Source of the DNA: a virus
Length of the DNA: 41,147 nucleotides
Strand: one strand, 5' to 3'
Virus record (IMG/VR): IMGVR_UViG_3300029479_000009
Span: 1-41,147 of that record
The notes below the pieces were generated by a model that saw nothing but the letters and a program-made list of their open reading frames with translations, ran no database searches and was not told the origin of the DNA. Below are positions 2,081-34,356 of the stretch, piece by piece. Both the position numbers and the translations under genes were made by a program. The first letter of the stretch is position 1; each line of letters starts with the position of its first letter.

Positions 2081-2110
2081 CCCCGTCGTCACCCGGCGGC
2101 GGGGCTTTTA
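2081..2110 (+). terminator. Rho-independent terminator candidate for 1756..2001
   Basis: Stem ccccgtcg/cggcgggg (one G-U pair), 8-nt loop, then cttttat. Confidence 0.5.
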
Positions 2111-3334
2111 TGTGTCCACTGTGGACACCCCGGCTGGCTGTTCAAGCATCTTCATAAATGCGTCGCCAGATATAATTTTTATATTTGCGCCGTCTGAATT
2201 CAATTTTTCTACTTTTTTCTGTTCGCCTGATTTTTTCCCGTATTCATAAGCCCATTCTTTTGAGCGAGTTCCACATACCAAGATATCAAGGGTTGGGCTT
2301 ATCGTTGACCGGACAACAGCCCCCAAAGCAGAAGCCTTTTCAAAAGCCTGCTGCCGTGAAATTGGAAGTTCATCTGCAAATGCGATTTTTTTACCATAAA
2401 GAGCATTTGACGGGTCTGCGTCCTTACTGGGTTTGTAGATGTTCTTGAAGCTTTTATCGGCGTTTCTCTTTTTTCGCTCTTTTTCAAAAATAGCATCTTT
2501 TTCTTTGAAAAAATTGTATAGCGCCAAGATGGCTTTTGTATCTTCCAAAGAGTTGTCATAGTCATAAGTAAGCCCGATTTGACGGGCAGCTATTTCAAGC
2601 GTTGTCCACTTCGGATTTTCAATGCCGTTTGCTGTGTTGTATCTTCGCAGACGGTATACAGGCGAATCCATGTGAATCTTTTCCATGTCAAATTTGTACT
2701 TTTCCAAGAAGTCATATACAAAATTGTAATCAAAGGTTATTACCAGCTTGGTACGATTGAAAATATCTTGTACATATGGCTTTACTTCCGAAAAGCATGG
2801 ACAATCTTTCACCAAGCTATATGGAATTGCATTGACACTATAAGCCCTGATCCACTCGGTTTTTCTTCTTGGCTTGCAGTACTGGTCAATCAGGACATTT
2901 CCGCTTGGGTCTATGATGGAGATTTGCAAAATATCGTTGTTGCTTACATACTGCCGCTCATAGCTTGTGGCTTCGACGTCCAGCACCACAAAATCATAGT
3001 GGGCGTTTTCGGCTTCTCGCTTTTCCATTTGCCGCTGGAGCTCATCAAGATAATCTTGCGGCATTTTTCCCGGTATCGGCTTCGGCTCTTCTTTTTGAGG
3101 CTGAGCCGACAGAGAGGAAACCTGAGCAGTTTGCGCTTGTGCTTCACAGATAATTTTGCTGATTTCATCCTCTTCGTTGCTCTGACTGGAAGATTCAAAA
3201 GAATTTGAAAATATTTTTTGATTCTTTTTCCGAATTTCTTGATATTTTGCTTTTTCTTCTGCTTCTTTTTGCTTTTTGCGCTGAAAATGCCAAATCACAG
3301 CGATTGCAACAACCAAAATCAATAATAAGCCCAT
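2108..3334 (-). CDS. Membrane-anchored DnaQ-like (DEDD) exonuclease fused to a C-terminal BRCT-like domain (408 aa)
   Basis: N-terminal hydrophobic helix GLLLILVVAIAVIW, followed by a charged linker. Exonuclease motifs are VVLDVEAT and ITFDYNFVYDFL, plus a degenerate ExoIII region YDNSLEDTKAIL. The BRCT-like tail reads GKKIAFADELPISRQQAFEKASALGAVV...LDILVCG. The region is visibly AT-rich. Confidence 0.6.
   Translation of the reverse strand: MGLLLILVVAIAVIWHFQRKKQKEAEEKAKYQEIRKKNQKIFSNSFESSSQSNEEDEISKIICEAQAQTAQVSSLSAQPQKEEPKPIPGKMPQDYLDELQRQMEKREAENAHYDFVVLDVEATSYERQYVSNNDILQISIIDPSGNVLIDQYCKPRRKTEWIRAYSVNAIPYSLVKDCPCFSEVKPYVQDIFNRTKLVITFDYNFVYDFLEKYKFDMEKIHMDSPVYRLRRYNTANGIENPKWTTLEIAARQIGLTYDYDNSLEDTKAILALYNFFKEKDAIFEKERKKRNADKSFKNIYKPSKDADPSNALYGKKIAFADELPISRQQAFEKASALGAVVRSTISPTLDILVCGTRSKEWAYEYGKKSGEQKKVEKLNSDGANIKIISGDAFMKMLEQPAGVSTVDT
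2112..2128. repeat. Dispersed palindrome copy 1: GTGTCCAC-T-GTGGACAC
   Basis: Perfect 8+1+8 palindrome. It overlaps the last codons (VSTVDT) of the minus-strand gene 2108..3334. Confidence 0.9.
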
Positions 3335-14504: not shown

Positions 14505-14545
14505 AAGCGGCTGACTTTGAAAGGCAGAGCAGCCGCTTTTATTTT
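14505..14545 (+). terminator. Rho-independent terminator ending the early operon
   Basis: Stem aagcggctg/cagccgctt followed by TTTTATTTT. Confidence 0.7.
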
Positions 14546-14643
14546 GTCCGAAATGTCCGGGATTTGTCGTTTTGTCCGGAAATGGTCGATTTGTCCGAAA
14601 TGTCCGGATTGTCCGAGAATGGTCAAAATGTCCGGAATGTCCG
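14545..14643 (+). repeat. Iteron array: 11 head-to-tail TGTCCG-type hexamers spaced 9-10 bp apart
   Basis: TGTCCG at 14545, 14554, 14573, 14592, 14601, 14610, 14629 and 14638. Variants are TTGTCG at 14564, TGGTCG at 14583 and TGGTCA at 14620. There is no credible ORF here. Confidence 0.85.
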
Positions 14644-14652
14644 AAAACAGTG

Positions 14653-14661
14653 TGCTATTAT
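14653..14661 (+). promoter_or_regulatory. Possible extended -10 promoter element (TGcTATTAT) directly downstream of the iterons
   Basis: tgtgctattat read directly; no -35 hexamer, so it would depend on an activator; speculative. Confidence 0.3.
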
Positions 14662-14825
14662 TATGCTGCGGGTTTCGGAGATCAGCTCACCGGAAACCGG
14701 AAACATTGCATTTCCCGGCGGGAAGCATAGCGCGGATTCAAGAACTTGCCGTGCTCAATGGGCAAACCCGCGCCGTCCGCTTCAAAGCCCAGCGGCGCAT
14801 TGAGAAAACAGAATCATACAACCCG

Positions 14826-14850
14826 GCGGGTGTCCACAATGGACACCCGC
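14826..14850. repeat. Dispersed palindrome copy 2 (extended, imperfect centre): GCGGGTGTCCA-CAA-TGGACACCCGC
   Basis: 11-bp arms; 9 nt upstream of the tRNA-like gene. Confidence 0.85.
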
Positions 14851-14859
14851 TATTTACAT

Positions 14860-14994
14860 GCCGCCATAGCTCAATGGAAGAGCGCCGTCTTTCTAAGGCG
14901 GGCCATCGCTGGTGACACCTCAAAAATATCACTGTGCATTTCACCACTGCATAAATCCATTTTGAGGGTGCTGGTTCGAGTCCAGCTGGCGGCT
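14860..14994 (+). tRNA. tRNA-like gene with a UCU (Arg) anticodon arm and a 68-nt insertion at the variable-loop position
   Basis: Acceptor stem GCCGCCA/TGGCGGC. D arm GCTC-AATGGAA-GAGC. Anticodon arm CCGTC-TTTCTAA-GGCGG. T arm GCTGG-TTCGAGT-CCAGC. Between them, 14902-14969 is inserted, containing the helix CCTCAAAA/TTTTGAGG. No encoded CCA. Confidence 0.55.
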
Positions 14995-15008
14995 GACGTG
15001 ATTTTAGA

Positions 15009-15025
15009 GTGTCCACTGTGGACAC
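15009..15025. repeat. Dispersed palindrome copy 3: GTGTCCAC-T-GTGGACAC
   Basis: Perfect copy 15 nt downstream of the tRNA-like gene. Confidence 0.9.
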
Positions 15026-15047
15026 CTTTGGAGAGGAGGACTGCAAA

Positions 15048-15275
15048 ATGCTTGAGCGCTTGAAAGAACTGATCTGCGACATGGCAAAGTTTTTGACGCG
15101 CCTCGGCGCTGGCCTTATCCTCTCGACCTTACCGATCAGCAACAAAGAAAGCCACTTTGTGCGCTATGCGCGGTGTTTCGGTTTCCGTGCAGACCACACA
15201 AAACGCGAGCCTCGGGCAGAGATCGGAGGCCGTGGCTGTATCCAAGGAGCACGGCCTGCTATCCGTGCGGATTAA
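15048..15275 (+). CDS. Hypothetical small protein (75 aa), weak call
   Basis: Strong RBS GGAGAGGAGG 8 nt before the ATG; translation MLERLKELICDMAKFLTRLGAG...; the region could instead be non-coding RNA. Confidence 0.3.
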   Translation: MLERLKELICDMAKFLTRLGAGLILSTLPISNKESHFVRYARCFGFRADHTKREPRAEIGGRGCIQGARPAIRAD

Positions 15276-15297
15276 CCGCTGCTGATACAATACAATT

Positions 15298-15346
15298 AAA
15301 AACCAGCTTTTTGCATGATGAGCTCCATGCAGCAAGGCTGGTTTTT
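15298..15346. terminator. Long hairpin / bidirectional terminator just before tRNA-CAU
   Basis: AAAAACCAGC...GCTGGTTTTT outer stem with an inner TGCATG/CATGCA stem. Confidence 0.55.
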
Positions 15347-15351
15347 CTTAT

Positions 15352-15428
15352 GCCGCTTTAGCTCAGTCGGCCAGAGCATCCGGCTCATAACCGGACGTGT
15401 GCAGGTTCGAGCCCTGCAAGCGGCACCA
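15352..15428 (+). tRNA. tRNA with CAU anticodon (elongator Met or lysidine-modified Ile2), CCA encoded
   Basis: Full cloverleaf read by hand: GCCGCTT/AAGCGGC acceptor stem, GCTC..GAGC D arm, TCCGG-CTCATAA-CCGGA anticodon arm, GCAGG-TTCGAGC-CCTGC T arm, then A-CCA. Confidence 0.85.
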
Positions 15429-15455
15429 AAACGCCAGAAGAAAGGAGGCTGCCCC

Positions 15456-16189
15456 ATGGAGCTGTACAACGGCGATTGTCTGGAAGTGATGAAAAGCATT
15501 CCGGATGATAGCGTGGACATGGTGCTGACGGATTTACCGTATGGCACCACCCGGAACGCCTGGGATTCTATCATCCCATTTGAACCGCTGTGGGCACAGC
15601 TCAAACGGGTAACCAAGCGTGGCTGTGCGATTGCACTCCATGCGGATATGCCGTTTGCCGCAAAGCTTGTCTGCTCCAATCTTCCGTGGTATCGGTACGA
15701 GCTCATCTGGGAAAAGCCCTTGGGCTCTGACTTCCTCAACGCAAACCGGAAGCCCTTAAAAAATCATGAGAGCATCCAGATATTCAGTGAATGCCAGACG
15801 AAGACCTACAATCCACAATTCACGTTTGGTTCGCCGTATGTAAGGACAAGAACCGGCAAAAGTTTAAATTACGGCGAGTGCGGAAGCGTATGCACCACGA
15901 TCAGTGAGGGGGGCGACATCCCAAAACGGTATTACATTTTGCCACAGACCGGGAAAAGATTCACCCCACGCAAAAGCCCGTGGCGCTGGAAGCGTGGCTT
16001 ATCCGCACCTACACAAATCCGGGCGAGACCGTGCTGGACTGCTGCATGGGCAGCGGCTCCACGGGTGTGGCCTGCATCCATGAGGGCCGAAATTTCATCG
16101 GCATTGAAAAAGATGCAGAGTATTTCCGCATTGCAAAGATGAGACTTGAACAGGAGCAGGAAGCTGGGCAGCAGCTGAGTTTGTTATGA
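15456..16189 (+). pseudogene. DNA N4/N6 methyltransferase (beta-class, DPPY-type) split into two frames at a G6 tract
   Basis: The N-terminal part, in the frame of 15456, has MELYNGDCLEVM...VLTDLPYG. The C-terminal part, in the frame open from 15908, has GGRHPKTVLHFATDREKIHPTQKPVALEAWLIRTYTNPGETVLDCCMGSGSTG. The switch occurs at GGGGGG 15908-15913. Confidence 0.8.
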
Positions 16190-23758: not shown

Positions 23759-23800
23759 CAAGGTGTCCACAGTGGACACCTTGCTTTTCTTTTGTTTTTT
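23759..23800 (+). terminator. Rho-independent terminator built on dispersed palindrome copy 4
   Basis: caaGGTGTCCAC-a-GTGGACACCttg, a 12-bp stem, followed by CTTTTCTTTTGTTTTTT. Confidence 0.85.
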
Positions 23801-30606: not shown

Positions 30607-30810
30607 ATGATCATGATCAACTACGACCCGGACACCCGGGTGGTACTTTCCGGCGGCGAAGTAAACCCGCGCTATGCGCTCCAGCAGCTCCCGGACGGGG
30701 CGGCCTATGTGGACGCCCTGCCCGAGGGCGATCTGAGCGGATACCAGTACATCAACGGCGCTTTTGTGCCCATCAAACAGGAGGACAATTATGCAGCAGA
30801 TCAGAATTGA
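30607..30810 (+). CDS. Small tail-module hypothetical protein (67 aa)
   Basis: ORF track entry; position only. Confidence 0.45.
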   Translation: MIMINYDPDTRVVLSGGEVNPRYALQQLPDGAAYVDALPEGDLSGYQYINGAFVPIKQEDNYAADQN

Positions 30811-33487
30811 TTTTGATAACCCCGGGCTCCCTCAGAGCCTCGGCGTCGTTGAGGGCGAAAGCCAGAGCCGTATCTTTCAGGCGGCGCTCTACAAGAGCGG
30901 CGCGGCCTATACGGCCCCGGCTGGTGCGGTATACAGCATTATGTACCGTGGCTTCGGCCCCCAAAATCAGGGCTGGTATGACACCATCGAGGACGGCGCG
31001 GGCAAGCGTGCCGCCTGCACCGTTTCCGGCAACGTCGTCACCTGTGAACTGGCCCGTCAGGCCCTCCGCGTCCCAGGCCATCTGACCGTGGTGCTGTGCG
31101 TTTCTGACGCAAAAGGCTACATGCTCAAGAGCTGGCCCATCATGGCGGATGTCAGAAATGACGGGTATGAGGATACCGGAGAAAGTGAAATGTACTTCAA
31201 TCTCTCAGGCATCGCTGGCAACTACCTCGCCCAGCTGGAAAAAGCCATGACCGACGCCGAGACAACCAGAAATAATCTTATTTCCACTTCTGCACAGGTT
31301 AAAAAAGACATCGACGCCAAAGCCGCAGAGGCACTCAAGAGCATCCCGGAGAGCTATACGGAGCTTGATGAGAGCGTGAAGCAGCTAAAGGAAAATTTAG
31401 AAGTTTTTACGGAGGCTGAATCAAATACAATTCAAACGAATGAAGTCTTTTATAATGGATATAAACAAGGCTGGAAGCTGAAATCCGATGGAACAAGAAC
31501 GGGCGGAACAGATTGTGCTATATATTATTGGAGAGTTAAAGAAAACGAAATCATATATGTTCATGCCGAAAAAATACATGATGCTGTTTTACAGTTTCAA
31601 AAATCTACTGGCGATGCTACTTATGGTGATGTAAATAACAATTTAATAGGAAGTGTAAAATCATCGCGCTTTGATGGATTTGTTAAAGTTCCAGCTGGCG
31701 CTGAATATTTGCTGATATCTGATAACTATAATACAACACATTTTTCCGTATGTGCTTATCACTCGGACAATAATATTCATCCTGATAATAACGGCAACAT
31801 AGCATACAACGGTTCTTTTGGAACAAGAGATGATCACAAAATAAGAACGGGAGCAATAGCGGTAAAAAAAGGACAACGTATAACAATAAGTTGTGGTTCT
31901 TTCAAAAGTATGGTTTTCTTTTGGGCTGGTTCAATAAAGGATACTACAACTGTGACATACTTTGAAACGGAATGGAATAATGAAAAAGAAAGAGTAATAG
32001 ATGTCATAAATGATGGATATTTTGGAGTGAAGTTTGCCGATGCAGAAGACACCCAAAAAATTGTATCAAGATATGATTTCGATGGGTCTGTTACTCTGTG
32101 TAAGGCTGAATATAACAAAAAAGCAGAAATCAATTTACTGGATTTATCTGGTATGCACAAACATGACAATGCAGGAAGAGTGTATAGAACTAATATGTTG
32201 GCTTTACCGACACAAGGAATAAAGCTAAAACTTCACATACCTAATGGAATGTATGTAAATATTGGATTTCGTAATACAAAAGGTCAGGCGTATGGAGAAT
32301 GGAACATAAAAAATGCGATAGATGGATACGAATGTGAGTTGAGCAGTGAATACGAATCGTTCCAAGTTGAAATCATTTCTGATCAAAAAACAAACAATGA
32401 AGTCATAACTGAATTTATAAAGAAAAATATAATTGCTGTTGAAACAAACGCATCAATTGAAAATGCTATGATAATGGACTTGGAAACAAACCAGTATATA
32501 AACTGGCTGCGGTATATTGGCTTGGATTCTGATAATCTGCCAGTGCGCTATCCGACGTTTGTTCATGTTAGCGATGTTCATGGCGATTACACAAGATTGG
32601 ATAATGCATATAATTTTGCAGAATCTATCGATGCGGATGCTTTGATTAACACGGGAGATAATGTGGTATCGTCTGGAAAAGACGGGGCGAAATATGTACA
32701 AGAAATAGACAAAAAATATAATGTACGGGCGTTAAATGTATTAGGGAATCATGATTACTATAGTTTGCCGGAAGAAAATGTGTATAATGAAAACTTATCT
32801 TATTTTGCTGACCGTTGGAACTATATTTGTGATTCAAAACCTTATTATTATTATGACGATGAAAAGAATAAAATTAGATTTATAACATTAAACCAATTTG
32901 AGGGGTTAAATATTTCCTTTAGCCAAACGGAAATCGATTGGTTTGTAAACACATTAAAAAACACACCTACAAATTATGGAGTGATTATATTAGAACATAT
33001 GCCGGGAACAAGGCATATGACGGGCGCAATTGACAGTTTTACGTCTCCCACTTGTAATGTGAATGACTGGTGGGAGGTAGTAGGTCAAGATACGTTAATC
33101 TTTGATGTTGTAGATGCTTTTATCGATAAAAAATCATTGGCGAAATTATACACAGGAACATATCAAAGTGTGGATGTGTCTGCAGATTTTAGTAATGTTT
33201 CAGATGGCACAGAATTTATTTGCTACGTATGCGGACATACTCATTATGATTATATTGGGTATGTGAATGGTAAGAATAGGCAGCTATTGCTATGTGTTAC
33301 GACAACAAGTGCTAAAATTTCAAAGAGATTTTGTGATGGTATGCCAAGAAGTGACTATGGTATGAGTCAAAATTCATTTAATGTTTACTGCATAGACAGA
33401 AAAAACAAACAAATAAGAATAGGAAGAGTTGGGTGCAATAAATCAAATGATTTATCTGATAGAAAATATGTATTTGCGAATTATTAA
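30791..33487 (+). CDS. Tail fibre / receptor-binding protein: BppU-like N-terminus plus a low-GC C-terminal region with a calcineurin-like metallophosphoesterase domain
   Basis: Start at MQQIRIDFDNPG... after CAGGAGGA. Motifs FVHVSDVHGD, NTGDNV, LGNHDY and CGHTHYD are present. Base composition drops sharply near 31.39 kb. Confidence 0.75.
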   Translation: MQQIRIDFDNPGLPQSLGVVEGESQSRIFQAALYKSGAAYTAPAGAVYSIMYRGFGPQNQGWYDTIEDGAGKRAACTVSGNVVTCELARQALRVPGHLTVVLCVSDAKGYMLKSWPIMADVRNDGYEDTGESEMYFNLSGIAGNYLAQLEKAMTDAETTRNNLISTSAQVKKDIDAKAAEALKSIPESYTELDESVKQLKENLEVFTEAESNTIQTNEVFYNGYKQGWKLKSDGTRTGGTDCAIYYWRVKENEIIYVHAEKIHDAVLQFQKSTGDATYGDVNNNLIGSVKSSRFDGFVKVPAGAEYLLISDNYNTTHFSVCAYHSDNNIHPDNNGNIAYNGSFGTRDDHKIRTGAIAVKKGQRITISCGSFKSMVFFWAGSIKDTTTVTYFETEWNNEKERVIDVINDGYFGVKFADAEDTQKIVSRYDFDGSVTLCKAEYNKKAEINLLDLSGMHKHDNAGRVYRTNMLALPTQGIKLKLHIPNGMYVNIGFRNTKGQAYGEWNIKNAIDGYECELSSEYESFQVEIISDQKTNNEVITEFIKKNIIAVETNASIENAMIMDLETNQYINWLRYIGLDSDNLPVRYPTFVHVSDVHGDYTRLDNAYNFAESIDADALINTGDNVVSSGKDGAKYVQEIDKKYNVRALNVLGNHDYYSLPEENVYNENLSYFADRWNYICDSKPYYYYDDEKNKIRFITLNQFEGLNISFSQTEIDWFVNTLKNTPTNYGVIILEHMPGTRHMTGAIDSFTSPTCNVNDWWEVVGQDTLIFDVVDAFIDKKSLAKLYTGTYQSVDVSADFSNVSDGTEFICYVCGHTHYDYIGYVNGKNRQLLLCVTTTSAKISKRFCDGMPRSDYGMSQNSFNVYCIDRKNKQIRIGRVGCNKSNDLSDRKYVFANY

Positions 33488-33552: not shown

Positions 33553-34356
33553 ATGAACCTCTTGACTTTTCTCTTCCGTCTCTTCGCCGCTCTTGCTCAC
33601 GCAAAGGAAGCGGCAGACAACTCCACCGCAGAGCCTGCCCCCGTGTCCACTGTGGACACCCAGAGCGCCGCTCCTCCCGGCTGGGGCGGGCCGCTGCCTT
33701 ACCGATACATCGACGTGAGCCGGTATCAGGGCAAAGTCACCCTCGACGGCTGGCGCAAAATTAAGGCGGCTGGCTACAAAGGCGTCATGCTCAAGACGGT
33801 CTCCACGAATTCGAAGATGAGTAAGCGGGCAGACGGACTGTACATCGACCCGACCTTTGAGCGCAACTACGCGGGCGCCCGGGCCGCTGGGCTGGACGTG
33901 GGCGTCTACTACTACACCTACGCCACCAGCGAAGCGATGGCGGATGCAGAGCTGGCCCTTGTGCGGGAAGCGGTGCGGGGCAAAGAGCTCACCATGCCCG
34001 TGTGCGTGGACGTGGAGGAAAACAAGCTCAAAAAGCTCTCCACGCTTGACCTCACCAACGTGGTGGCGTATGCGCTGGAAAAGGTGGAAGCTATGGGCTT
34101 TTATGCCCAGCTGTACACCTACACGGGCTACAGCTATGAGTTGGACATGCAGCGCCTGGCAGGCCGCTGGGACGTCTGGCTCGCCGACTACACGGGCGAA
34201 ACGCCCAAGGTGGATTACATCTACCACGCCCACCAGCACACCAGCAAGGGCCGCGTGCCGGGCATCTCCGGCAACGTTGACCTCAACGTGACAGAGATCA
34301 ACTACCCCAAAATCATCCGCAAGAAGGGCCTGACCCGTCTTCGGGAGGGCGCATGA
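33553..34356 (+). CDS. GH25 muramidase endolysin with an N-terminal signal-like extension
   Basis: YIDVSRYQG...VYYYTYA...CVDVEE...SGNVDLN GH25 motifs; N-terminus MNLLTFLFRLFAALAHAKEA. Confidence 0.8.
   Translation: MNLLTFLFRLFAALAHAKEAADNSTAEPAPVSTVDTQSAAPPGWGGPLPYRYIDVSRYQGKVTLDGWRKIKAAGYKGVMLKTVSTNSKMSKRADGLYIDPTFERNYAGARAAGLDVGVYYYTYATSEAMADAELALVREAVRGKELTMPVCVDVEENKLKKLSTLDLTNVVAYALEKVEAMGFYAQLYTYTGYSYELDMQRLAGRWDVWLADYTGETPKVDYIYHAHQHTSKGRVPGISGNVDLNVTEINYPKIIRKKGLTRLREGA
33643..33659. repeat. Dispersed palindrome copy 5: GTGTCCAC-T-GTGGACAC, inside the endolysin N-terminal linker
   Basis: Perfect copy; encodes VSTVDT in frame. Confidence 0.9.

What the first reader, a model, noticed from the sequence alone, without database searches (positions are those of the whole stretch)
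14826..15025. tRNA-like gene with all four canonical arms but a 68-nt insertion at the variable loop, bracketed by the dispersed palindrome
14860-14994 folds by hand into a perfect 7-bp acceptor stem, a standard D arm, an anticodon arm with loop TTTCTAA (anticodon UCU, Arg) and a standard T arm (GCTGG-TTCGAGT-CCAGC).

However, 68 nt (14902-14969) separate the anticodon stem from the T stem. The insert contains its own 8-bp helix, CCTCAAAA/TTTTGAGG. Bacterial tRNA introns normally sit in the anticodon loop and are much larger, while class II variable arms are far shorter.

Copies of the GTGTCCA...TGGACAC palindrome lie 9 nt upstream and 15 nt downstream.

Possibilities are a tRNA with a novel processed insertion, a tRNA disrupted by a miniature inverted-repeat insertion, or a tRNA-like regulatory or decoy RNA.
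Basis: seen in the sequence. Interest (0 to 1): 0.65.

Follow-up and report, generated by a model that had tools for sequence, protein, structure and literature searches.

The report
Phage tRNA-shaped RNA with swappable extra arm
This gut-phage gene encodes a tRNA-shaped RNA with a conserved, folded 68-base extra arm where the short variable loop should be; related phages keep the same body but carry different extra arms, so it looks like a natural tRNA carrier for protein-binding hairpins, probably used against host defences.

Summary
Window 14860-14994 (+) matches the Rfam tRNA model end to end (53 bits against a threshold of 29), with 68 nt between the anticodon stem and the T stem. ARAGORN misses it.

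It is not a broken tRNA. I recovered 253 copies (141 distinct) from gut-phage contigs. All four tRNA helices and the insert helices stay paired, with compensatory and G·U changes.

The insert has three parts: a 4-bp mini-hairpin, a conserved GAYAC, and a two-helix arm.

Six types share the tRNA body and linker but carry different arms. One arm ends in GGAUUGAAAC, the 3' end of many CRISPR repeats.

Anticodons are limited to UCU, UUU, GUU and GCU. U36-A37-A38 never changes. Position 33 is A everywhere except in the window's type and one type-P variant. Three types lack G18G19.

The gene is a 179-bp cassette between two copies of a 17-bp palindrome. Phages with 95%-identical neighbouring genes lack it.

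No uninterrupted allele, splice motif, ribozyme or dispersed copy was found.

Best reading (about 0.4): a stable tRNA-mimic carrier or decoy RNA acting in phage-host conflict. The window's own type could still decode AGA. Function is inferred, not shown.

The parts
14860..14994 (+). The tRNA-shaped RNA gene (135 nt): a cloverleaf with a 68-nt structured variable region. This is the window's 'W type', with anticodon UCU.
   Evidence: Rfam RF00005, 53 bits, model positions 1-71 of 71. The MFE fold is a cloverleaf plus an extra arm, z = -3.56. The custom covariance model R1 scores it at 146 bits.
14860..14866 (+). Acceptor stem, 5' strand (GCCGCCA). It pairs with 14987-14993 (TGGCGGC). The discriminator is T at 14994, and no CCA is encoded.
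   Evidence: Across the family, pairs 5, 6 and 7 covary (UG/CG/UA, CG/UA/UG, AU/GC/GU). CCA follows the discriminator in only 6 of 253 copies.
14869..14883 (+). D arm: GCTC-AATGGAA-GAGC, with G18G19 and A20.
   Evidence: The D stem is invariant across the 67 aligned sequences.
14885..14901 (+). Anticodon arm: CCGTC-TTTCTAA-GGCGG. The anticodon TCT is at 14892-14894 and position 33 is U.
   Evidence: Family anticodon loops are tabulated: UCU appears only in W type, and U36-A37-A38 is invariant.
14902..14914 (+). Linker mini-hairpin: GCCA-UCGC-UGGU plus G. It is followed by the conserved GACAC (14914-14918, overlapping the base of the arm).
   Evidence: Predicted in the MFE fold. The linker consensus G-N-C-A-(3 to 4 nt loop)-U-G-N-Y-GAYAC is shared by all six types. 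Stem pair 2:7 is C-G, U-A or A·G. The second-to-last loop base pairs with the Y of GAYAC as G-C in 106 sequences, A-U in 33 and G-U in 1.
14915..14969 (+). The extra ('cargo') arm. Outer helix: 14915-14925 with 14960-14969 (10 bp, bulged A at 14917). Internal loop: ATATCAC 14926-14932 opposite AATCCA 14954-14959. Inner helix: 14933-14938 with 14948-14953. Apical loop: TTTCACCAC 14939-14947.
   Evidence: The outer helix is 98.5% paired, with three pairs changed on both sides between W and L types and many G·U intermediates. The inner helix has pair 78:94 as CG/UA/UG and pair 79:93 as A·C, G-C or A-U.
14970..14986 (+). T arm: GCTGG-TTCGAGT-CCAGC.
   Evidence: The middle pair covaries as UA/CG/UG.
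14830..14846 (.). Upstream copy of the 17-bp perfect palindrome GTGTCCAnnnTGGACAC. It is the left boundary of the cassette.
   Evidence: 5 copies in the window, 0 expected; the relative L232 has a single palindrome at this point.
15009..15025 (.). Downstream copy of the palindrome, the right boundary of the cassette. The segment GATTTTAGA plus the palindrome also follows some L-type genes in other phages.
14847..15025 (+). The 179-bp presence/absence cassette: the tRNA-shaped gene plus one palindrome copy. It is absent from phages whose flanking DNA is 93-95% identical.
   Evidence: BLAST of the window against L232 and L233 and the alignment. Rfam finds only tRNA-Met in L232 and L233.
15352..15428 (+). 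Neighbouring canonical tRNA-Met (CAT). This is context, since the gene sits in a small phage tRNA cluster.
   Evidence: ARAGORN; Rfam 70.1 bits.

Best explanation
The locus encodes a stable, tRNA-shaped carrier RNA, not a broken tRNA.

Shown:
- It keeps a full cloverleaf.
- Its variable region has been rebuilt into a conserved linker (mini-hairpin plus GAYAC) and an independently folded arm.
- The same body and linker occur in related gut phages with at least six different arms.
- The gene moves as a small cassette bounded by a palindrome.

Inferred:
- The tRNA body allows excision from the transcript by RNase P and RNase Z and makes the RNA long-lived.
- The anticodon stem-loop imitates the tRNAs that read AAN and AGN codons (Lys, Asn, Arg, Ser). 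tRNAs of this ANN-reading kind (Lys, Asn, Thr; Arg from memory) are known targets of bacterial anticodon nucleases.
- The extra arm is a swappable protein-binding module. It either shields the RNA or acts as a second bait.
- The RNA therefore works as an anti-defence decoy, or as a cleavage-resistant stand-in, in the phage-host contest over tRNAs. In one type the target may be CRISPR repeat-binding proteins.
- The window's own version (U33, G18G19, A20, anticodon UCU) is the most tRNA-like member and may additionally be charged with Arg and read AGA.
For: 1. Real, selected RNA structure.
- Rfam tRNA match at 53 bits.
- 253 copies, 141 distinct.
- 99.5% of helix cells paired, with 0 of 500 shuffles reaching the observed covariation score.
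- Both insert helices covary.
- Family-wide compensatory changes in the acceptor and T stems, and a G-C/A-U tertiary pair in the linker in 139 of 140 sequences.

2. Modularity.
- A scan that did not constrain the insert recovered types M, N, O and P. They have the same body and linker but different arms, and every one folds as a cloverleaf plus arm.
- Representatives of all six types pass the Rfam tRNA threshold.

3. Features that argue against ordinary decoding as the shared function.
- A33 in all types except W and one P variant.
- Types N, O and P lack G18G19.
- The anticodon switches between UUU and GUU on near-identical bodies within types L, M and N.
- The discriminator base varies (A, U, C or G).
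- In the first 143 loci, 17 also carried a canonical tRNA-Lys(UUU); 46 such genes were found across all 253 loci.
- Codon use in the flanking genes does not track the anticodon.

4. Anti-defence context.
- The anticodon set is UUU, GUU, UCU and GCU, with U36-A37-A38 invariant.
- The canonical tRNAs found alongside are only Trp, Met, Lys(UUU) and Thr(UGU), apart from a few rare others.
- PARIS AriB targets Lys(UUU), Thr(UGU) and Asn(GUU), and phage variants escape it through changes in the anticodon arm (PMC12409363).
- Phage tRNAs evade anticodon nucleases through anticodon-loop mutations (PMC10264068).
- Retron-Eco7 and Septu cut the variable arm of tRNA-Tyr, and T5 tRNA-Tyr resists because its variable loop differs (PMC13096335).

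5. Type N arm. It is a hairpin followed by GGAUUGAAAC, identical to the 3' end of type I-B and I-C repeats (PMC3374615, PMC10989782). RNA anti-CRISPRs built from solitary repeats are known (PMC10651486).

6. Cassette behaviour. The gene is present or absent between palindrome copies in near-identical phages.
Against: - There are no expression, processing, charging or binding data. Every functional step is inferred.
- The window's W type has all canonical decoding features: U33, G18G19, a normal T loop, and the Arg identity elements A20 and C35.
- The phage's 907-aa tail-fibre-region ORF (30764-33487) holds 19 of the 40 AGA codons counted in 20 ORFs. A plain decoding role for this copy is therefore entirely possible.
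- The W/L arm resembles no known RNA. There was no Rfam match, no plasmid match and no literature string match.
- The CRISPR link for type N rests on a 10-nt match plus a hairpin. The best Rfam CRISPR repeat hit is only 12.8 bits (E = 1.5, threshold 45), and no host repeat set could be searched.
- No recognisable anti-CRISPR or other anti-defence gene lies next to it.
- Most of the diversity comes from two main lineages, so some of the covariation counts reflect few evolutionary events. Some columns were also fixed by the search patterns used.
Confidence: 0.4

Rival explanations
1. It is an ordinary working phage tRNA-Arg(UCU) that carries a tolerated, oversized variable arm. An old insertion landed next to the T stem. 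The hairpin is kept paired only so that it stays out of the way, like the long arm of class II tRNAs. The RNA is charged and reads AGA for AGA-rich late genes.
For: - The W type has a complete canonical cloverleaf with U33, G18G19, A20 and C35.
- A GCTGGT direct repeat flanks the insert (14909-14914 and 14970-14975). Removing the 61 nt between the repeats would leave a normal tRNA resembling an ordinary phage tRNA-Arg, L229.
- The tail-fibre-region ORF has 19 AGA codons.
- The gene lies beside tRNA-Met.
- Engineered tRNAs with hairpin aptamers in the variable arm remain active in translation (PMC7590224, abstract).
Against: - Loop sequences in the arm are conserved between W, L, M and P types while the helix sequences change. 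That is the opposite of what a mere spacer would show.
- The linker is conserved in all types and contains a covarying tertiary pair.
- Most family members have A33. Some lack G18G19.
- Flanking codon use does not follow the anticodon: AGA makes up 0.078 of Arg codons in W loci against 0.097 in L loci.
- Close relatives do without the gene.
Confidence: 0.28
2. The tRNA part is only a processing and stability scaffold, and the arm is the sole active part. The arm would be a sponge for one RNA-binding host protein, such as a Cas6 or Cas5 repeat-binding nuclease (an RNA anti-CRISPR), a type III toxin, or another RNA-guided defence.
For: - Arms are swapped on a constant body.
- The type N arm ends in the CRISPR repeat tail GGAUUGAAAC, just after a hairpin.
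- Solitary-repeat RNA anti-CRISPRs exist in phages (PMC10651486).
- Arm length stays within 63-70 nt across unrelated arms.
Against: - The anticodon loop is not free to drift. U36-A37-A38 and A33 are fixed, and only four anticodons are seen. The tRNA part therefore seems to be read by something.
- The W/L arm matches no known repeat family.
- The N arm scores 12.8 bits against the best CRISPR repeat model, whose threshold is 45.
Confidence: 0.17
3. The 68 nt contain a new kind of bacterial or phage tRNA intervening sequence. It would either be cut out and the ends rejoined, or be nicked to give a two-piece tRNA held together by the arm helix. The result would be a normal-sized tRNA-Arg.
For: - The flanking GCTGGT repeat makes a clean junction possible in W type.
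- Conserved arm loops could be recognition sites for a processing enzyme.
Against: - No group I or group II intron or small ribozyme match at E <= 1.
- The junctions lie in a mini-hairpin and at the foot of an uninterrupted 10-bp helix, which is not a bulge-helix-bulge.
- In L type the upstream repeat has decayed (GTTGG or ATTGG) and does not follow the covarying T stem. Splicing there would give a poor T stem.
- No RNA ligase or splicing endonuclease was found among the window ORFs tested.
- No intron-less allele was found anywhere searched.
Confidence: 0.1
4. It is a dead tRNA gene interrupted by a mobile inverted-repeat element, or a DNA-level site (an attachment-site relic or a protein-binding palindrome) with no RNA function.
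For: Inverted-repeat ends plus a 6-bp flanking direct repeat in W type resemble a transposon footprint. One variant, L133, shows a DNA-level template-switch event inside the arm.
Against: - Strong purifying selection on all RNA helices. Substitutions that give G·U pairs are frequent, and these preserve RNA pairing but not DNA pairing.
- No other copy in the window. No match to the W/L insert motif in 185,579 genomes.
- Every true copy found lies in the same tRNA context.
Confidence: 0.04

Closest known systems
Class II tRNAs and allo-tRNAs (long variable arm: Leu, Ser, Tyr, Sec)
   Same: An extra stem-loop emerges between the anticodon stem and the T stem of an otherwise normal cloverleaf, and its last base abuts the T stem. 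Allo-tRNAs likewise combine a long arm with many different anticodons (PMC5389517, PMC7609411).
   Different: Known arms are roughly 10-24 nt with a single short helix. Here the region is 63-70 nt, with a mini-hairpin, a conserved GAYAC, two helices, an internal loop and a 9-nt apical loop. The anticodons (Arg, Lys, Asn) belong to class I-shaped tRNAs. Position 33 is A in most members.
Phage anti-defence tRNAs (T5 tRNA-Lys, tRNA-Thr and tRNA-Asn against PARIS; T5 and T6 tRNA-Tyr against retron-Eco7 and Septu)
   Same: These are phage-encoded tRNAs of the same isoacceptor classes. They carry sequence changes in the anticodon arm or the variable arm that make them poor nuclease substrates (PMC12409363, PMC10264068, PMC13096335, PMC11555353). 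They are also carried as small accessory gene clusters.
   Different: Those tRNAs are normal in size and differ by point changes. None has a rebuilt variable region, A33 or swappable arms. Their function was shown by experiment, whereas here it is inferred.
RNA anti-CRISPRs (Racr, solitary repeat units)
   Same: They are small phage non-coding RNAs that display a hairpin for a host RNA-binding immune protein. The type N arm ends in the repeat tail GGAUUGAAAC, directly after a hairpin.
   Different: Racrs are free-standing repeat copies behind a promoter, and the Racr paper does not mention tRNA at all. The window's own arm shows no repeat similarity. The N arm matches only the last 10 nt of a repeat model.
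Engineered tRNA scaffolds and aptamer-tagged tRNAs
   Same: A foreign hairpin is displayed from a tRNA body, which stabilises and processes it. In aptamer-tagged allo-tRNAs the hairpin is placed in the variable arm and the tRNA stays active (PMC7590224).
   Different: Those are synthetic constructs. This would be a natural counterpart.
Viral and archaeal tRNA-linked small RNAs (murine gammaherpesvirus 68 tRNA-miRNA units; box C/D RNAs inside archaeal tRNA introns). Cited from my own knowledge and not checked here.
   Same: A tRNA or tRNA-like fold is used to express and process a second functional RNA element.
   Different: In those cases the cargo lies downstream of the tRNA or in an anticodon-loop intron, and it is released. 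Here it sits in the variable region, and there is no sign that it is released.

Membership tests
tRNA (Rfam RF00005) | Four-arm cloverleaf scoring above the curated threshold | tested here: met
   53.0 bits against a threshold of 29, model positions 1-71 of 71. Representatives of the other types score 37-50 bits.
tRNA (Rfam RF00005) | Tertiary-core signature: U8, A14, G18G19, T-loop UUCRANU, U33 | tested here: met
   Met for the window's W type. It is not met across the family: A33 occurs in all other types apart from one type-P variant (C33), and G18G19 is missing in types N, O and P.
tRNA (Rfam RF00005) | Variable region of 4-5 nt (class I) or about 10-24 nt (class II) | tested here: not met
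   68 nt lie between the anticodon stem and the T stem. The family range is 63-70 nt plus 2.
tRNA (Rfam RF00005) | Aminoacylation and use on the ribosome | not testable with these tools
   No RNA or charging data are available. The indirect evidence is mixed: an AGA-rich tail-fibre ORF against no codon-use match in the flanking genes.
Class II (long-arm) tRNA | A single variable stem-loop, with Leu, Ser, Tyr or Sec identity | tested here: not met
   The arm has two helices plus a separate mini-hairpin. The anticodon is UCU (Arg). Only the rare O and P variants have GCU (Ser).
Group I intron-containing bacterial tRNA | Intron of 200 nt or more with a catalytic core, inserted in the anticodon loop | tested here: not met
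   The insert is 68 nt and lies in the variable region. No intron or ribozyme family matched at E <= 1.
Archaeal-type spliced tRNA (bulge-helix-bulge intron) | Two 3-nt bulges separated by a 4-bp helix at the exon-intron junctions | tested here: not met
   The consensus structure places the 5' junction in a mini-hairpin and the 3' junction at the foot of a continuous 10-bp helix abutting the T stem.
Miniature inverted-repeat transposable element | Many dispersed copies with conserved terminal inverted repeats and target-site duplications | tested here: not met
   No other copy in the window. No match to the W/L insert motif in 185,579 genomes. All true copies sit in the same tRNA context. The 'inverted repeats' covary and tolerate G·U pairs.
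RNA anti-CRISPR (solitary repeat unit) | Sequence and structure similarity to a CRISPR repeat of the host | tested here: inconclusive
   The W/L arm has no CRISPR repeat model hit. The type N arm is a hairpin plus GGAUUGAAAC, but it scores only 12.8 bits against CRISPR-DR9 (threshold 45, E = 1.5). Host repeats could not be searched.
RNA anti-CRISPR (solitary repeat unit) | Binding to Cas proteins, and neighbouring acr genes | not testable with these tools
   Binding cannot be tested here. The neighbouring small ORFs have no family match in PHROGs, Pfam or NCBIfam.
tmRNA and bacterial Y RNA (YrlA) tRNA-like RNAs | Match to the curated models | tested here: not met
   ARAGORN finds no tmRNA. No Rfam match other than tRNA at E <= 1 in 14700-15600.

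The most novel reading that the evidence does not exclude
Gut phages of Oscillospiraceae carry a natural 'tRNA display platform'. A conserved tRNA-shaped body and linker present interchangeable hairpin modules from the variable region, together with a non-decoding (A33) anticodon loop that mimics nuclease-targeted tRNAs. Each module would be a bait for a different host immune RNA-binding protein, for example CRISPR repeat-binding Cas proteins in type N. A single small cassette would then be a programmable RNA anti-defence device. It would be the natural counterpart of synthetic tRNA scaffolds and a new class of RNA anti-CRISPR or anti-nuclease.
Probability: 0.3. Interest if true: 0.9.

Novelty: new variant of a known kind. 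Interest (0 to 1): 0.72.

Why it matters
**For tRNA biology.** No natural tRNA-family RNA that I could find has a 63-70-nt, multi-helix, sequence-conserved variable region, or a near-universal A33. If such an RNA is charged and used on the ribosome, the known limits of tRNA architecture would need stretching.

**For phage-host conflict.** tRNAs and their variable and anticodon arms have recently emerged as major targets of bacterial immunity (PARIS, retron-Eco7, Septu, PrrC, Cas13, Cas12a3). A family of tRNA mimics with swappable arms would be a new and compact counter-defence principle. It would also be a ready-made natural scaffold for displaying RNA modules.

**For annotation.** ARAGORN misses these genes. 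Phage tRNA censuses probably under-count them.

Tried and rejected
- **Stop-codon suppressor read in a shifted frame** (CUA or UUA if the anticodon loop is read one base later). Rejected: the stem register is fixed by covariation, and later variants (GAGUUAA, UAGCUAA) do not fit.
- **Uninterrupted allele.** A pattern joining the same anticodon stem to the same T stem across 2-7 nt returned only unrelated ordinary tRNAs. The tRNAs found by model R1 in 100 sources, including 36 Oscillospiraceae prophage loci, are unrelated canonical tRNAs.
- **Splicing between the GCTGGT repeats.** In L type the upstream repeat does not track the covarying T stem.
- **Antisense target or extra copies of the insert in the window.** Only chance 9-12-mers were found.
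- **Codon compensation.** There is no AGA or AAA enrichment matching the anticodon in genes flanking W loci against L loci. The one supporting fact is the AGA-rich tail-fibre ORF.
- **Encoded CCA as a discriminator between real and mimic tRNAs.** Uninformative, because the canonical neighbouring tRNAs are mixed as well.
- **CRISPR arrays with matching repeats.** There are none in the 4.95 Mb of fetched loci. BLAST against plasmids gave only chance hits. Rfam repeat models gave one sub-threshold hit. Literature string searches for the W, L and M arm loops returned only unrelated primers.
- **A pseudoknot between the linker UGGU and the apical-loop ACCA.** It is possible in W and L types, but the columns were fixed by my search patterns, and the pairing is not preserved in a single register in the other types. 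It remains untestable here.
- **L023,** which had three pattern matches, is a 9-nt coding tandem repeat and is unrelated.
- **One viral scan used too wide a gap** and recovered only type P.
Full report
**1. The observation**

Window 14860-14994 (+) reads as a complete cloverleaf:
- Acceptor stem: GCCGCCA with TGGCGGC.
- D arm: GCTC-AATGGAA-GAGC.
- Anticodon arm: CCGTC-TTTCTAA-GGCGG, anticodon UCU.
- T arm: GCTGG-TTCGAGT-CCAGC.
- Spacer between anticodon stem and T stem: 68 nt (14902-14969).

The Rfam tRNA model aligns over all 71 positions at 53.0 bits (threshold 29, E = 9.5e-9) and places the extra sequence in the variable region. The lowest-energy fold is the cloverleaf plus an extra arm (z = -3.56). 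ARAGORN reports only the neighbouring tRNA-Met at 15352-15428. The palindrome GTGTCCAnnnTGGACAC brackets the gene at 14830-14846 and 15009-15025. It occurs five times in the window against none expected.

**2. It is a family, not an accident**

- *Isolated phages.* Among 50,697 phage records, only one unannotated human-faecal contig (MT839005.1) carries a homologue. It has the same insertion point. Its insert helix has a different sequence but is still paired.
- *Source.* The named source records are human-gut metagenome assemblies, mostly contigs of 40-45 kb.
- *Likely hosts.* Terminase relatives of the window's phage sit in Oscillospiraceae and other Clostridia genomes, including Flavonifractor, Intestinimonas, Pseudoflavonifractor, Faecousia and Gemmiger.
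- *The window itself.* It is a temperate siphovirus-like genome. I identified a repressor, a replication initiator, ParA/ParB, SSB, a methyltransferase, terminase, portal, endolysin and an integrase fragment. The gene lies between the replication/partition module and the packaging module.

**3. The structure is under selection**

On 67 distinct sequences, 99.5% of helix cells form standard pairs. No shuffle out of 500 reached the observed covariation score, and sliding the 3' partners by 1-3 columns dropped pairing to 30-46%.

| Element | Evidence |
|---|---|
| T-stem middle pair | UA, CG or UG |
| Acceptor pairs 5, 6, 7 | Covary across the family |
| Insert outer helix (10 bp, one bulged A) | 98.5% paired; three pairs changed on both sides between the window's W type (CCUCAAAA/UUUUGAGG) and the common L type (CCACGGGA/UYCCGUGG); many G·U intermediates |
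| Insert inner helix (6 bp) | Pair 78:94 is CG, UA or UG; pair 79:93 is A·C, G-C or A-U |
| First 13 nt of the insert | 4-bp mini-hairpin; its second-to-last loop base pairs with the Y of the following GAYAC as G-C (106), A-U (33) or G-U (1) across all types |

Caveats:
- Several columns were fixed by my search patterns.
- Counts are per sequence, not per evolutionary event.
- The W-L contrast is essentially one deep split.

**4. The arm is modular**

A scan that fixed only the anticodon-stem 3' strand and the T arm recovered further types, M, N, O and P (more). All share the tRNA body and the linker consensus G-N-C-A-(loop)-U-G-N-Y-GAYAC. The rest of the arm differs.

- Types W, L, M and P carry a 5-6-bp hairpin with a 9-nt A/C-rich loop: UUUCACCAC, GCCAACCAC, CUUAACCAA, and ACCAAUCAC or AUCAAUCAC.
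- Types N and O carry a different hairpin with a CCUGUCC-type loop.
- In type N this hairpin (GUCCGG/CCGGAC) is followed by GGAUUGAAAC. That is the exact 3' end of many type I-B and I-C repeats, for example a Bacteroides coprophilus repeat (PMC3374615) and Thermus repeats (PMC10989782).

Every type folds as a cloverleaf plus arm and passes the Rfam tRNA threshold. The CRISPR link remains weak. The best Rfam repeat model hit covers only those 10 nt (12.8 bits, E = 1.5, threshold 45), and I could not search host repeats.

**5. Features that do not look like a normal decoder**

- *Anticodon loops:* CAUUUAA (125 distinct sequences), GAGUUAA (5), UUUCUAA (4, W only), UAGCUAA (3), and single cases of CAGUUAA, AAGUUAA, UAUUUAA and UCGCUAA.
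- *Anticodon set:* only UUU, GUU, UCU and GCU occur. These are the AAN and AGN codon boxes.
- *Fixed positions:* U36-A37-A38 never changes.
- *Position 33:* it is A everywhere except in W (U) and one type-P variant (C).
- *Anticodon switching:* UUU and GUU alternate on near-identical bodies within types L, M and N.
- *D loop:* types N, O and P lack G18G19.
- *3' end:* the discriminator base varies, and CCA follows it in only 6 of 253 copies.
- *Neighbouring tRNAs:* in the first 143 family loci, the canonical tRNAs found alongside were Trp(CCA) in 124, Met in 35, Lys(UUU) in 17 and Thr(UGU) in 12. The L type is therefore often redundant as a Lys decoder.
- *Codon use:* flanking genes do not follow the anticodon.

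Against this, the window's W type is the most canonical member. It has U33, G18G19, A20 and C35. The phage's low-GC tail-fibre-region ORF (30764-33487) contains 19 of the 40 AGA codons counted.

**6. It is a cassette**

Two phages whose methyltransferase is 95% identical to the window's (L232, L233) have the same flanks but a single palindrome in place of palindrome-gene-palindrome. A third (L234) has the cassette. The downstream GATTTTAGA plus palindrome also follows some L-type genes in other phages. The 179-bp unit has therefore been gained or lost through the palindrome.

**7. What it is not**

- *Not a dispersed mobile element.* There is no second copy in the window. The W/L motif is absent from 185,579 representative genomes. 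Every true copy lies in the same tRNA context.
- *Not a known intron or ribozyme.* There was no Rfam match and no bulge-helix-bulge. No ligase or splicing nuclease was found among the ORFs tested.
- *No uninterrupted allele* was found.
- *A possible origin.* In W type the insert is flanked by a GCTGGT direct repeat, and deleting 61 nt would give an ordinary tRNA-Arg. This suggests the family began as an insertion at the T stem. In the other types the upstream repeat has decayed and does not follow the T stem.

**8. How it most likely works (inferred)**

The conserved body should allow processing by RNase P and RNase Z and give a stable RNA. Two parts are constrained in sequence: the anticodon loop and the arm loops together with the linker. 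Both are therefore probably read by proteins.

The isoacceptor set, together with the accompanying Lys(UUU) and Thr(UGU) genes, overlaps the tRNAs attacked by known defence nucleases:
- PARIS AriB targets Lys(UUU), Thr(UGU) and Asn(GUU) (PMC12409363).
- PrrC targets tRNA-Lys (PMC10264068).
- Colicin D targets tRNA-Arg (from my own knowledge).

Phage tRNAs are known to escape such nucleases through changes in the anticodon arm (PMC10264068, PMC12409363) or the variable arm (PMC13096335).

I therefore favour a tRNA-mimic that acts either as a cleavage-resistant stand-in or as a decoy, with the arm as a shield or a second bait (confidence about 0.4). The main rival is a plain, working tRNA-Arg(UCU) with a tolerated arm (about 0.28). 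A pure scaffold for an arm-only sponge, such as an RNA anti-CRISPR, comes next (about 0.17). A new kind of intervening sequence follows (about 0.1), and a dead gene is last (about 0.04).

**9. Comparison with known systems, and novelty**

It works like a class II tRNA in topology. It resembles phage anti-defence tRNAs in context, and RNA anti-CRISPRs or synthetic tRNA scaffolds in logic. It fails a defining feature of each:
- The arm is several times larger and more complex than any class II arm.
- Anti-defence tRNAs are normal in size.
- Racrs are free-standing repeats, and the Racr paper never mentions tRNA.

Ten literature searches found no description of such RNAs. I rate it a new variant of a known kind, and of high interest if the modular-decoy reading holds.

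Noticed in passing
window 2112-2128, 14830-14846, 15009-15025, 23763-23779, 33643-33659: There are five exact copies of the 17-bp palindrome GTGTCCAnnnTGGACAC (0 expected). Most lie between genes. The copy at 23763 has an extended stem and a T-run, like a terminator. Two copies bound the tRNA-like cassette, so the palindrome may act both as a terminator or stabiliser hairpin and as a recombination hot-spot.
   Followed up: partly
window 14545-14646: Seven same-strand copies of TGTCCGRRA lie within about 100 bp (9 in the whole window against about 1 expected). They sit just downstream of parA/parB and about 200 nt upstream of the tRNA-like gene. This looks like an iteron or centromere (parS-like) array, or an operator cluster. 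A TGnTATTAT -10-like box follows at about 14652-14660.
   Followed up: partly
window 30764-33487: A 907-aa ORF in a low-GC stretch (40-50% GC against about 57% elsewhere) holds 19 of the 40 AGA codons counted in 20 ORFs. It looks like a horizontally acquired tail-fibre or receptor-binding gene. It is the only codon-use argument for a decoding role of the UCU RNA.
   Followed up: partly
L133:4120-4255 (-): In one L-type variant, the 3' side of the arm's internal loop (CACATCCAT) is replaced by CAGTGATGT, the exact complement of the 5' side. This zips the arm into a single long perfect hairpin. It is the signature of an intra-strand template-switch mutation.
   Followed up: no
L528:3681-3752 (also L505, L550, L560, L469, L551, L511): Immediately after type N, O and P genes lies a second RNA-like element of about 72 nt that looks like a degenerate tRNA (GCCGCCATAGCGCAACGTGGAGCGC...GGTTCGATTCC...GGCGGC). 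Neither ARAGORN nor Rfam calls it at threshold. In L528 a canonical tRNA-Lys(UUU) follows it. There may be more unconventional tRNA-like genes in these clusters.
   Followed up: no
L518:1621-1900: A type N gene is accompanied by an inverted partial duplicate of its linker and arm start on the opposite strand. This points to local rearrangement at these cassettes.
   Followed up: no
L070, L078, L121 (tRNA-Thr UGU); L097, L169, L201 (tRNA-Lys UUU): About 6 kb from the L-type gene, different phages carry either a canonical tRNA-Lys(UUU) or a tRNA-Thr(UGU) at what looks like the same position. These would be alternative tRNA cassettes. They are the two prime targets of PARIS AriB.
   Followed up: partly
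three family loci, not individually inspected: ARAGORN calls a CUA-anticodon (amber-suppressor-type, labelled 'tRNA-Pyl') tRNA in three family loci, and one four-base-anticodon tRNA in another.
   Followed up: no
window 2108-3334 (-): A 408-aa ORF has a weak DnaQ/RNase T-type exonuclease match and a possible BRCT domain. It ends at a palindrome copy, next to the repressor region. It could be a phage-borne defence or anti-defence gene.
   Followed up: no
L023:1-300: A long tandem array of the 9-mer AAYCACTGC in an unrelated viral contig matched my first search pattern by chance. It is a coding-type microsatellite, not a relative of the insert.
   Followed up: yes
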